A stretch of DNA of 64,000 bases. Origin: Promethearchaeota archaeon (GTDB taxonomy: Archaea > Asgardarchaeota > Lokiarchaeia > Sigyniarchaeales > SOKP01). The notes under the pieces were generated by a model, which was not told the DNA's origin, ran no database searches, and saw nothing but the letters and a program-made list of their open reading frames with translations. The stretch is taken from the NCBI GenBank assembly GCA_019058445.1, contig JAHPZA010000006.1, positions 672,001-736,000 on the forward strand. Reading direction: 5' to 3'. A program made the translations under genes and the position numbers. Every line of letters starts with the position of its first letter. Position 1 is the first letter of the stretch. Of this stretch, positions 61,774-62,586 are shown one piece after another.

Positions 61774-62586
61774 ATGTCGCAACCAGAATTGAATACGATT
61801 TATTTCGTAAATAAATTTGGCTCTGAAAAAAAACAAATACCGTTCCCTGTTGCCCCTAATATTAAATTGATGGATATTATTCCAGAAATTTCAAGAAAAT
61901 TTGGAATTTCTTCACAAAATGTATGTGTTGCTAACATTGGAGGCCAAGTTCTCACAACCACAGATTTATTGATCCCAATTAGTGAATTAGTAAATAAATT
62001 CGGAAACACTTTCGATATCATAGATCGAGGCATTGTAGGTTCAAAATCACATGATATTAGTTGGCAGCGATCTATTCTTGACGAATTAATTCAAGAATTT
62101 CCTGAGAAATGGGAATCTGTTGGACCAAAACATCCCGCATGGAAAGATCGCGTCAAACTTGAAATCGAAAAGATCCTCAAATATATTAATTACTTAAAAA
62201 TGACACAGAACAAACCATGGTTTAAATTGTTTCCCGAGAAAAATCCCCGCTATAATTATTTAATATGGAACGGTAATTTACTTGTTCCAGAGCGCCCGGA
62301 AATTAATTTTGATATAAAGGTTCTCCTAACCTCAGAATATCCTAAAGTTTGTCCGAGATGTTTTGCAGAATCAAATATCATTGATTATTGTGGGAAAATA
62401 TTTTTAAAAAATATTTGGGAACAGGACAATAAGAAATATGTAATGATTTGCCACGAGCACATGTCAAATACACATGCTTGGAAGGAAAATCTCGGTATCG
62501 TTCATTTTTTTATAAGGCAAGTGTGGATTTGGTGGGCTGCTCAACAGAATGTAATAATTGAAGAATATGATAAAAAAAAATGTTGA
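61774..62586 (+). CDS. UFM1-like modifier (aa 1-89) fused to UFC1-like E2 (aa 90-270)
   Basis: NKFGNTFDIIDRGIVG|S; VGPKHPAWKDRVKLEIEKILKYI, PWFKL, FDIKVLLTSEYP..P, catalytic IC226HEH, GIVHF. Confidence 0.85.
   Translation: MSQPELNTIYFVNKFGSEKKQIPFPVAPNIKLMDIIPEISRKFGISSQNVCVANIGGQVLTTTDLLIPISELVNKFGNTFDIIDRGIVGSKSHDISWQRSILDELIQEFPEKWESVGPKHPAWKDRVKLEIEKILKYINYLKMTQNKPWFKLFPEKNPRYNYLIWNGNLLVPERPEINFDIKVLLTSEYPKVCPRCFAESNIIDYCGKIFLKNIWEQDNKKYVMICHEHMSNTHAWKENLGIVHFFIRQVWIWWAAQQNVIIEEYDKKKC

What the first reader, a model, noticed from the sequence alone, without database searches (positions are those of the whole stretch)
61774..62586. UFM1 made as a fusion to its own E2, needing cleavage at VG|S
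Seen: residues 1-89 end NKFGNTFDIIDRGIVG (Gly89 = nt 62038-62040), followed directly by S and an E2 domain. Knowledge (from memory): human pro-UFM1 ends LKHGSELRIIPRDRVG|SC with a single-Gly VG terminus. UFC1 has GPRD..LWVQRLKEEY..LIRYV, DWFRL and KICLTDH, mirrored here by GPKHPAWKDRVKLEI..ILKYI, PWFKL and MICHEH (Cys226). Inference: a polyprotein giving 1:1 modifier:E2, which makes proteolysis the switch that turns the pathway on.
Basis: partly seen in the sequence, partly recalled or inferred. Interest (0 to 1): 0.88.

Follow-up and report, generated by a model that had tools for sequence, protein, structure and literature searches.

The report
UFM1-like tag fused to its E2
A Lokiarchaeal (Asgard) archaeon makes a UFM1-like protein tag and the UFC1-like enzyme that attaches it as one polypeptide. 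It almost certainly has to be cut after a conserved glycine, and this is a recurrent, apparently neutral variant of an archaeal forerunner of the eukaryotic UFM1 pathway.

Summary
ORF 61774-62586 (+) encodes 270 aa.

- **Tag domain:** residues 1-89 form a beta-grasp ending in V88-G89. Its best structural matches are UFM1 (Z 13.0-11.8, rmsd 1.2-2.1 A).
- **E2 domain:** residues ~97-270 best match UFC1 (Z 16.4, against 9.4 for the next E2). hhalign to a bona fide UFC1 gives 96.6%, E 5.5e-10, and Cys226 lies on the UFC1 catalytic Cys.
- **Operon:** the gene closes an operon with a UBA5-like E1 and an intact JAMM protease, in a Promethearchaeota genome.
- **Relatives:** the two domains are either fused, with VG kept and a variable linker, or split into two overlapping genes. 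In split forms the tag stops exactly at VG or 1-9 residues later. The state changed at least 3, probably about 11, times on the E2 tree.
- **This genome:** it has no second copy of the tag or the E2, and no UFSP. A working cascade therefore needs a cut after Gly89.

Cleavage and the identity of the protease are inferred, not shown. The fusion looks like a tolerated extension of translational coupling.

Asgard Ufm1 homologues are already published (PMC12962969). This scan has already reported the same fusion in another genome (e1-2566892).

The parts
61774..62040 (+). UFM1-like beta-grasp domain, residues 1-89, ending V88-G89
   Evidence: AF2 model pLDDT 89.8. Best structural matches are UFM1, Z 13.0-11.8, rmsd 1.2-2.1 A, against <=10.2 for other Ubls. 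A profile of the Asgard Ubls hits UFM1 chains at E 0.018 with the C-termini in register. G89 is the only invariant column among 29 Ubls.
62035..62043 (+). Predicted processing site V88-G89 | S90 (GTA GGT | TCA)
   Evidence: Free homologues stop exactly here (L002...DIIDRGIVG*) or 1-9 residues later. Fused homologues keep VG. Cleavage itself is inferred.
62041..62061 (+). Variable linker, residues 90-96
   Evidence: No conservation after VG in 16 fused homologues. Model confidence is lower here, pLDDT 76-81 for residues 81-100.
62062..62586 (+). UFC1-like E2 domain, residues 97-270, plus stop codon
   Evidence: Pfam UFC1 24 bits against a cut-off of 25, or 25.2 bits in the six-frame genome search. 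PDB UFC1 E 4e-4. VIA Z 16.4 over 152 aa against 9.4 for UBE2S. hhalign 96.6%, E 5.5e-10 to a protein scoring 203 bits on Pfam UFC1.
62449..62451 (+). Codon of Cys226, predicted catalytic cysteine (C-H-x-H)
   Evidence: Invariant with H227 and H229 in 28 homologues. Aligned with the UFC1 catalytic Cys.
62395..62397 (+). Codon of Lys208 (C-G-K), at the position of the Lys of the UFC1 T-A/P-K motif; there is no HPN motif
   Evidence: K208 is invariant. hhalign pairs DYCGKIF with DKTPKMY.
60462..61679 (+). JAMM/MPN+ metalloprotease (405 aa), candidate processing and deconjugating enzyme
   Evidence: Pfam Prok-JAB/JAB. E27, H85, H87, S96 and D99 are invariant in six operons. Best matches are the Caldiarchaeum Rpn11 homologue bound to ubiquitin, Z 18.4, rmsd 2.0 A, and E 2e-6 by profile.
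59631..60458 (+). UBA5-like E1 (275 aa)
   Evidence: Best PDB match is UBA5 at 2.7e-47, against MoeB at 1.4e-29. In the alignment, Cys190 falls on the GVCAASLPTT cysteine of UBA5, and the CxxC pairs 171/174 and 243/246 are kept.
56080..59456 (+). Three co-oriented accessory genes: wHTH/EAP30-like (461 aa), SPFH-SHOCT (281 aa), and a 360-aa protein with a C-terminal zinc ribbon
   Evidence: Pfam hits. The same gene kinds accompany the E1-JAMM-Ubl/E2 core in other contigs, in changed order.

Best explanation
The gene encodes a precursor polyprotein made of a UFM1-like modifier joined through a short variable linker to its cognate UFC1-like E2.

Proposed sequence of events:
1. A Ubl-specific C-terminal hydrolase cuts the Gly89-Ser90 peptide bond. 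The most likely enzyme is the JAMM metalloprotease encoded immediately upstream.
2. This frees a modifier ending in ...IVG and an E2 that starts at about Ser90.
3. The UBA5-like E1 adenylates Gly89 and takes it onto its Cys190.
4. The modifier passes to E2 Cys226 and is then conjugated to targets.
5. The same JAMM enzyme probably also removes the tag from targets.

The fusion itself is an evolutionarily labile state. In relatives the two genes overlap by 4 nt, so a small indel merges the frames. Because a hydrolase that trims anything after VG is always present, tails of 1-9 residues and whole-E2 'tails' are tolerated, and they arise and revert repeatedly.

Shown here: domain identities, conserved VG, the split/fused pattern, the single copy in this genome, and intact catalytic residues in E1, E2 and JAMM. 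Inferred: the cleavage, which protease does it, conjugation, and the targets.
For: Domain identity:
- The model is confident (pLDDT 89.8).
- UFC1 scores Z 16.4, against 9.4 for the next E2. UFM1 scores Z 13.0-11.8, against <=10.2 for other Ubls.
- hhalign to a true UFC1 gives 96.6%, E 5.5e-10, with Cys on Cys.
- The only non-Asgard-type family found by the profile in 1.8 billion proteins is UFC1.

The VG boundary:
- VG is kept in the fused homologues and the linker after it is variable.
- Ten free Ubls end exactly at VG, and about twelve carry 1-9 extra residues.
- The Ubl profile aligns its last position with residue 83 of 85-residue UFM1 chains.

Interchangeability of fused and split forms:
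- The E2 tree needs about 11 fused/split changes, and at least 3 are forced by well-supported branches.
- The query's own clade holds 10 fused and 15 split members.
- Split genes overlap by 4 nt.

Necessity of cleavage in this genome (92.6% complete):
- There is one Ubl copy and one UFC1-like copy, both in this ORF.
- There is no Peptidase_C78 match.
- There is no in-frame start for a separate E2 before M143.
- The E1 catalytic Cys and zinc sites, E2 Cys226 and the JAMM motif are all intact.

The protease:
- A JAMM gene sits in all six operons examined (window, L001, L002/L003, L004, L011, L012).
- Its closest solved relative is the Caldiarchaeum Rpn11 homologue, whose role in processing the ubiquitin precursor is described in PMC6043591.
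- A bacterial operon JAMM (BilC) cleaves a Ubl-GFP fusion at the terminal Gly (PMC10557695).
Against:
- Sequence-level similarity of the Ubl to eukaryotic UFM1 is marginal. The Pfam Ufm1 model gives no hit, the profile against PDB gives only E 0.018, and no eukaryotic UFM1 appeared at E <= 1e-3.
- Some distant fused relatives have lost the terminal Gly (P0052), or both the Gly and the catalytic Cys (P0061). One protein carries the domains in the reverse order with Ser in place of Cys (P0053). Non-cleaved Ubl-E2 associations therefore do exist in the wider family.
- The model's high pTM (0.86) suggests that the two domains dock on each other, which would also fit an uncleaved two-domain enzyme.
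Confidence: 0.7

Rival explanations
1. The fusion is a permanent two-domain enzyme. The beta-grasp is never released and acts as a built-in, non-covalent Ubl domain of the E2, for docking to the E1, the JAMM protein or targets. No tag is conjugated from this gene.
For: - AF2 gives one compact model, pTM 0.86.
- Distant relatives have Ubl-E2 fusions without the terminal Gly (P0052).
- One protein has the order E2-Ubl (P0053).
- Iyer et al. 2006 describe bacterial polyUbl fused to an inactive E2-like domain (PMC1779556).
Against: - VG is strictly kept in the query's clade, while the next residues vary.
- The closest relatives make the same Ubl as a free protein ending at VG.
- Fused and split states are interleaved.
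- The genome has no other modifier for its intact UBA5-like E1 and Cys226 E2.
Confidence: 0.15
2. Cleavage happens, but the operon JAMM does not do it. Another cellular protease, or an autocatalytic event, matures the precursor, and the JAMM enzyme only removes the tag from targets.
For: - The JAMM gene is kept in operons whose Ubl is already mature (L002), so its core job need not be maturation.
- One family member has VG followed directly by Cys and a Hint domain (P0089). This shows another way of breaking the VG bond.
Against: - No UFSP-type (C78) protease is detectable in the genome.
- JAMM enzymes of the same structural type process Ubl precursors (PMC6043591, PMC10557695).
- No Hint or other autoprocessing domain is present in this ORF.
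Confidence: 0.12
3. The fused reading frame is an artefact (assembly or sequencing indel), or a recent inactivating mutation of a split gene pair.
For: A 1- or 2-nt indel in the 4-nt overlap would be enough to merge the frames.
Against: - The same uninterrupted frame is present in four other species-level genomes, including one of the same genus (G279, G040, G092, G118).
- It is also present in about 20 protein clusters from independent JGI, NCBI, ENA and Logan assemblies at 52-81% identity, with differing linkers.
Confidence: 0.02

Closest known systems
Eukaryotic UFM1 pathway (UFM1, UBA5, UFC1; pro-UFM1 trimmed by UFSP1/2)
   Same: - The E1 is best matched by UBA5 (2.7e-47).
- The E2 is best matched by UFC1 in sequence and structure, with no HPN motif and a Lys at the T-A-K position.
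- The tag is best matched by UFM1 in structure and ends in a single Gly preceded by Val.
- The tag is made with a C-terminal extension that must be removed.
- A UFL1-like protein exists elsewhere in the genome.
   Different: - The extension is the whole E2, not two residues.
- The protease in the operon is a JAMM metalloprotease, and no C78/UFSP was found.
- All genes lie in one operon.
- The tag does not reach the Pfam Ufm1 model.
- The E1 lacks the long UBA5 C-terminal region.
- Distribution is patchy: 28 of 301 genomes of the phylum.
Ubiquitin operon of Caldiarchaeum subterraneum and Asgard archaea (Ub, E1, E2, RING E3, Rpn11-like JAMM)
   Same: An archaeal operon with a Ubl, an E1, an E2 and a JAMM. 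The JAMM here is closest to CsRpn11 (Z 18.4), which processes the ubiquitin precursor (PMC6043591).
   Different: - The tag, E1 and E2 here are of the UFM1/UBA5/UFC1 type, not the ubiquitin/UBA1/UBC type.
- No RING E3 is present in the operon.
- The tag ends in a single Gly, not Gly-Gly.
- The precursor extension is an enzyme.
Bacterial Bil (BilABCD) and '6e' polyUbl operons
   Same: - The same four-part gene set (Ubl, E2, E1, JAB).
- The BilC JAMM pre-processes its Ubl and cleaves a large C-terminal fusion (PMC10557695).
- Some 6e operons fuse a polyUbl to an E2-like domain (PMC1779556).
- Distribution is patchy, and family members carry TIR, SIR2 and LRR fusions.
   Different: - No PADLOC model matches beyond generic E1 and JAB similarity.
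- The E2 here is catalytically intact and of UFC1 type, whereas the bacterial fused E2-like domain is described as inactive.
- The E1 is a small UBA5-type homodimer-style enzyme, not the canonical-like BilD.
Eukaryotic ubiquitin fusion precursors (polyubiquitin, Ub-ribosomal protein fusions)
   Same: The modifier is translated as an N-terminal fusion to another functional protein and released by a C-terminal hydrolase. This gives equimolar products.
   Different: The fusion partner is the modifier's own conjugating enzyme. The fusion is not fixed, and it toggles with split genes among close relatives.

Membership tests
UFC1 (Pfam PF08694) | Score at or above the Pfam gathering threshold (25 bits) | tested here: inconclusive
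   24.0 bits for the protein. 24.3 bits, or 25.2 with neighbours in the frame, in the genome search. Many homologues carry precomputed PF08694 hits.
UFC1 (Pfam PF08694) | Specific homology to bona fide UFC1 rather than to other E2 families | tested here: met
   hhalign of the family profile against a protein scoring 203 bits on PF08694 gives 96.6%, E 5.5e-10, over 126 columns. The profile search finds true UFC1 at 4.3e-7. VIA Z is 16.4, against 9.4 for the best other E2.
UFC1 (Pfam PF08694) | Catalytic Cys in the hairpin-loop before the long C-terminal helix | tested here: met
   C226 is invariant in 28 homologues and aligned to the UFC1 Cys.
UFC1 (Pfam PF08694) | No HPN motif; Lys of the T-A-K motif upstream of the Cys | tested here: met
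   There is no HPN in the E2 domain. The invariant K208 (C-G-K) is aligned with the Lys of KTPK in a true UFC1. The functional role of this Lys is recalled from the titles of UFC1 K108/TAK structures.
UFM1 (Pfam PF03671) | Match to the Pfam Ufm1 model | tested here: not met
   No hit at E <= 1 for this protein, or for 29 family members. In the genome search this locus was not recovered.
UFM1 (Pfam PF03671) | Beta-grasp fold closest to UFM1 | tested here: met
   UFM1 chains score Z 13.0-11.8, rmsd 1.2-2.1 A, over 76-86 residues. The next Ubls score <=10.2 and Caldiarchaeum ubiquitin 9.4. Foldseek TM is 0.81-0.88.
UFM1 (Pfam PF03671) | C-terminus with a single Gly preceded by Val, exposed by trimming | tested here: met
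   VG is conserved and G89 is the only invariant column. The profile end aligns to residue 83 of 85-residue UFM1 chains. Trimming itself was not tested.
UFM1 (Pfam PF03671) | Significant sequence similarity to eukaryotic UFM1 | tested here: inconclusive
   The profile against PDB gives UFM1 at E 0.018-0.027. No eukaryotic UFM1 appeared at E <= 1e-3 in the large search. PMC12962969 reports Asgard Ufm1 homologues from structure and phylogeny.
UBA5-type E1 | Adenylation domain closest to UBA5, with the catalytic Cys inside it and a four-Cys zinc site | tested here: met
   UBA5 scores 2.7e-47, against MoeB at 1.4e-29. Cys190 aligns to the Cys of GVCAASLPTT. C171/C174/C243/C246 are invariant. The residue numbering of the UBA5 catalytic and zinc cysteines is from memory.
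UBA5-type E1 | C-terminal UFM1-interacting and UFC1-binding sequences | tested here: inconclusive
   The tail ...DLNDLIDKIKE resembles the recalled UBA5 C-terminus. It is present only in the window and its closest relative, and absent from two other operons. It has no PDB hit.
JAMM/MPN+ isopeptidase | Glu ... H-x-H ... S-x-x-D zinc site on an MPN fold | tested here: met
   E27, H85, H87, S96 and D99 are invariant in six operons. Z is 18.4 to the Caldiarchaeum Rpn11 homologue.
Bil / known anti-phage Ubl systems (PADLOC) | Match to the system's protein models | tested here: inconclusive
   Only generic E1-E2 (Cap2-type) and JAB model hits. The best for the E2 is 6.3e-4, over 57 residues. The library dates from 2023.

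The most novel reading that the evidence does not exclude
The fusion is a genuine zymogen. JAMM cleavage would be a regulated step, for example triggered through the co-conserved SPFH, EAP30-like and zinc-ribbon proteins at the membrane. It would release tag and E2 together in a 1:1 ratio and pre-docked (the model places the two domains in one compact body), so that the first round of tagging is channelled. In that reading, the family's TIR-Ubl, SIR2-E2-Ubl and Ubl-Hint-LRR relatives and its patchy distribution would mark it as a conflict or stress system, not as housekeeping UFMylation.
Probability: 0.15. Interest if true: 0.8.

Novelty: new variant of a known kind. Interest (0 to 1): 0.62.

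Why it matters
UFM1 and UFC1 were reported as exclusive to eukaryotes (PMC10183829). Ufm1-like proteins were only recently reported in Asgard archaea, without their enzymes (PMC12962969).

This locus shows the tag together with a UBA5-like E1, a UFC1-like E2 and a protease in one operon. The core of UFMylation therefore probably predates eukaryotes, and it can be reconstituted from four small proteins.

The fusion gives a direct handle on three points:
- It predicts a defined cleavage product.
- It identifies VG as the reactive end.
- It suggests that a metalloprotease did the job that the cysteine protease UFSP does in eukaryotes.

The repeated fusion and fission also illustrates how Ubl precursors with large C-terminal partners, as in ubiquitin-ribosomal protein fusions, can arise neutrally once a C-terminal hydrolase exists.

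Tried and rejected
- **Complex prediction.** JAMM residues 1-150 with Ubl residues 1-100 returned no answer (score 0.01 against a mark of 0.32). It counts neither for nor against binding.
- **N-terminal domain against PDB.** phmmer of residues 1-95 gave no hit.
- **Pfam Ufm1 model.** It does not detect the domain.
- **ESM Atlas feature search.** It gave only generic ubiquitin-like clusters below 0.9.
- **E1 tail.** The idea that ...DLNDLIDKIKE is the UBA5 UFC1-binding helix rests on memory. The tail has no PDB match and is missing from the L. ossiferum and Sigynarchaeota-type operons, so it stays a lead only.
- **UfSP over the whole JAMM protein.** Foldseek aligned C. elegans UfSP (5xda) over about 380 columns of the JAMM protein (TM 0.4, rmsd ~9 A). 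This suggested a shared MPN-plus-second-domain architecture. UfSP is absent from the top 50 by Z in the VIA second look, so I do not claim it.
- **PADLOC and NCBIfam.** Neither gave a specific system name.
- **Literature.** Searches for a published Asgard UFC1, UBA5 operon or Ubl-E2 fusion found none in the held library. Most 'UBA5' hits were taxon placeholders.
- **Single-step origin of the fusion.** A one-step DNA derivation of the window's junction from the closest split relative could not be shown, because the linkers are too diverged.

Full report
**1. The observation**

The window has about 29-30% G+C. The ORF at 61774-62586 on the + strand is open and encodes 270 residues. Residues 74-89 read NKFGNTFDIIDRGIVG. 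Gly89 is GGT at 62038-62040, followed by Ser90, TCA.

The ORF is the last of six co-oriented genes:
- 56080-57465: a 461-aa protein with winged-helix motifs at both ends.
- 57526-58371: an SPFH/Band-7 protein with a SHOCT tail.
- 58374-59456: a 360-aa protein with a C-terminal zinc ribbon.
- 59631-60458: a ThiF-family E1.
- 60462-61679: a JAB/MPN protein.
- 61774-62586: the ORF in question.

**2. What the two halves are**

*The E2 half.*
- The C-terminal half hits Pfam UFC1 at 24 bits against a cut-off of 25. It hits human UFC1 chains at E 4e-4.
- A 28-sequence family profile aligns to a protein that scores 203 bits on Pfam UFC1, with 96.6% probability and E 5.5e-10. This puts MICHEH on RICLDIH and DYCGK on DKTPK.
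- C226, H227, H229 and K208 are invariant in the family.
- A profile search of 1.8 billion representative proteins found 79 hits. Apart from the archaeal family itself, the recognisable ones are true UFC1 (4.3e-7, 5.3e-6, 6.6e-4). None of the ten hits scanned against Pfam belonged to another E2 family.

*The structure.*
- An AlphaFold2 model built on 31 sequences is confident, with pLDDT 89.8 and pTM 0.86. Confidence is lowest at residues 81-100, the junction.
- By VIA-align, UFC1 structures score Z 16.4-15.2 (about 152 residues, 2.5-3.0 A), while the best other E2 (UBE2S) scores 9.4.
- For residues 1-90, UFM1 structures score Z 13.0-11.8 (rmsd 1.2-2.1 A). The TBK1 Ubl domain scores 10.2 and Caldiarchaeum ubiquitin 9.4. 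Foldseek agrees.

*The tag half at sequence level.* The link to UFM1 is weak.
- There is no Pfam Ufm1 hit.
- phmmer of residues 1-95 against PDB gave no hit.
- A 29-member Ubl profile reaches UFM1 chains only at E 0.018. That alignment does run to the last profile position and to residue 83 of 85-residue UFM1 chains, so the terminal glycines are in register.
- I therefore call the domain UFM1-like. It is a member by fold and C-terminal signature, but not by the Pfam model.

*The E1 and the protease.*
- The E1 is far closer to UBA5 (2.7e-47) than to MoeB (1.4e-29). It keeps the cysteine aligned to the UBA5 GVCAASLPTT cysteine and two CxxC pairs.
- The JAMM protein keeps E27, H85, H87, S96 and D99 in all six operons compared. 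It is closest to the Caldiarchaeum Rpn11 homologue solved with ubiquitin, at Z 18.4, rmsd 2.0 A, and E 2e-6 by profile.

**3. Relatives: split or fused**

- Homologues carry names from Promethearchaeota/Lokiarchaeota, Odinarchaeota and Sigynarchaeota.
- About 16 clusters at 52-81% identity are fused like the query. Many others are E2-only proteins of about 180 aa.
- In three E2-only loci, an 88-90-aa gene lies directly upstream, overlapping the E2 gene by 4 nt or abutting it. The tag ends at:
  - ...DIIDRGIVG-stop in a close relative (83% identical Ubl),
  - ...VVGGN-stop in Lokiarchaeum ossiferum,
  - ...DVGAAR-stop in a Sigynarchaeota-type contig.
- Across all proteins fetched, ten free Ubls end exactly at VG and about twelve carry 1-9 further residues.
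- The fused proteins keep VG (once AG) and then diverge at once.
- Gly89 is the only invariant column in 29 Ubl domains.
- A maximum-likelihood tree of 71 E2 domains needs about 11 changes between fused and split. At least 3 are forced by well-supported branches. The query's own well-supported clade holds 10 fused and 15 split members. The bootstrap had not fully converged, so the exact number is rough.
- In a sample of 301 species genomes of the phylum, 28 have the system.
  - Five carry an uninterrupted fused frame (the own genome, one of the same genus, and three others).
  - Eleven show two separate matches.
  - Three of the four other genomes of the same genus lack the system.
- The fusion is therefore real, old enough to be shared, and repeatedly gained or lost. 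The system as a whole is patchy.

**4. Why cleavage is required here**

- The own genome is 92.6% complete. It holds exactly one match to the Ubl profile and one to UFC1, both in this ORF.
- It holds no Peptidase_C78 (UFSP) match. It does hold a UFL1-like 793-aa protein on another contig.
- There is no in-frame start between the junction and Met143, so the E2 cannot be made separately.
- An E1 can only adenylate a free C-terminal carboxylate; this is established E1 chemistry.
- The E1, E2 and JAMM catalytic residues are all intact and invariant. The simplest reading is that the Gly89-Ser90 bond is cut.
- The operon JAMM is the obvious candidate. Its nearest solved relative processes a ubiquitin precursor (PMC6043591), and the bacterial BilC JAMM cleaves a Ubl-GFP fusion at the terminal glycine (PMC10557695).
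- This step is inferred.

**5. How I think it works, and what I do not accept**

- The JAMM gene is retained even where the tag is made already mature (L002). Its core role is therefore probably deconjugation.
- A hydrolase that removes whatever follows VG would make C-terminal tails selectively neutral. That would explain the variable 1-9-residue tails.
- The Ubl and E2 genes overlap by 4 nt in different frames, so a 1- or 2-nt indel is enough to fuse them. That would explain the recurrent fusions.
- Split genes with a 4-nt overlap are already translationally coupled, so 1:1 stoichiometry is not special to the fusion.
- I find no evidence that cleavage is a regulatory switch. It remains possible, at about 15%.
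- The main rival is a permanently fused enzyme. Three things keep it alive, at about 15%: the compact model (pTM 0.86); distant relatives that lost the glycine (P0052) or both the glycine and the cysteine (P0061); and a reverse-order E2-Ubl protein with Ser in place of Cys (P0053).

**6. Comparison with what is known**

- Asgard UFL1-like proteins have been noted since 2020-21.
- Ufm1 homologues in nine Asgard clades were reported in 2024/2026. The authors remark that some hits were not full length or had several hit regions, but they make no mention of UFC1 or UBA5 (PMC12962969).
- PMC10183829 states that UFM1 and UFC1 are exclusive to eukaryotes.
- I found no paper in the held library describing the operon or the Ubl-E2 fusion. 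The library is incomplete.
- Iyer et al. 2006 describe bacterial polyUbl fused to an inactive E2-like domain.
- This scan has already recorded the same fusion in another genome (e1-2566892, junction DRNIVG|T) and the split operon in another (e1-3064741). My results agree with both and were obtained independently.

**7. Verdict**

It is not supported for the 'switch'.
- This is a new variant of a known kind: a Ubl precursor whose C-terminal extension is its own, active E2, in an archaeal UFM1-type operon with a JAMM protease.
- Interest is moderate to high for the evolution of Ubl systems. The decisive experiments are simple.

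Noticed in passing
Protein P0089 (L015:3759-6383, JGI metagenome contig): An 874-aa relative carries the same Ubl ending ...DHRVVG, followed directly by Cys-Phe and a Hint/Vint domain that ends ...ILVHN-Met, and then leucine-rich repeats. A Gly|Cys-Hint junction is the hedgehog/intein-like autoprocessing arrangement. It would turn the VG bond into a thioester without an E1. It independently marks VG as the reactive end of this Ubl family.
   Followed up: partly
Proteins P0045, P0053, P0060: Other architectures occur in the family: a TIR domain followed by the Ubl (ending VG+GSKI); SIR2-TPR-E2(Cys->Ser)-Ubl without VG; and E2-LRR. 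In L002/L003 the operon sits next to HEPN/nucleotidyltransferase, DEAD-helicase and BrxC/BrxD-like genes. With the patchy distribution (28 of 301 genomes), this gives the family a conflict-system flavour.
   Followed up: partly
window 56080-59456; L011:8991-11329; L012:9592-12085; L002:301-5533: The E1-JAMM-Ubl/E2 core travels with a ~360-aa zinc-ribbon protein directly upstream of the E1. It also travels with an EAP30-like winged-helix protein and an SPFH/Band-7 protein, whose position flips from upstream (window) to downstream (L011, L012).
   Followed up: partly
window 60372-60455 (E1 residues 248-275): The E1 ends ...SQGDLNDLIDKIKE, which resembles my recollection of the UFC1-binding C-terminus of human UBA5. 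The tail is shared only with the closest relative (L002) and is absent from the L001 and L004 E1s. It has no PDB match.
   Followed up: partly
G000:C9:653248-653961 (own genome, other contig; L007/L008): A 793-aa open frame matches Pfam E3_UFM1_ligase (UFL1) at 1.1e-16, above the cut-off. It is unlinked to the operon and is a possible E3 for this cascade.
   Followed up: no
Proteins P0087, P0090, P0092, P0102, P0115, P0116: A separate, long-branched family of 400-540-aa proteins starts MTRYLFYFHYW.... It matches the profile across both the end of the Ubl and the E2 (E 1e-14 to 5e-6) and carries a 150-300-residue C-terminal extension. It may be a second, older Ubl-E2 fusion lineage.
   Followed up: no
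window 60462-61679 (JAMM residues ~150-405): About 250 residues after the MPN domain fold confidently (pLDDT ~75-90) into an alpha/beta region plus a helical bundle. No convincing solved relative appeared in the searches run. The region is conserved in length across the operons.
   Followed up: partly
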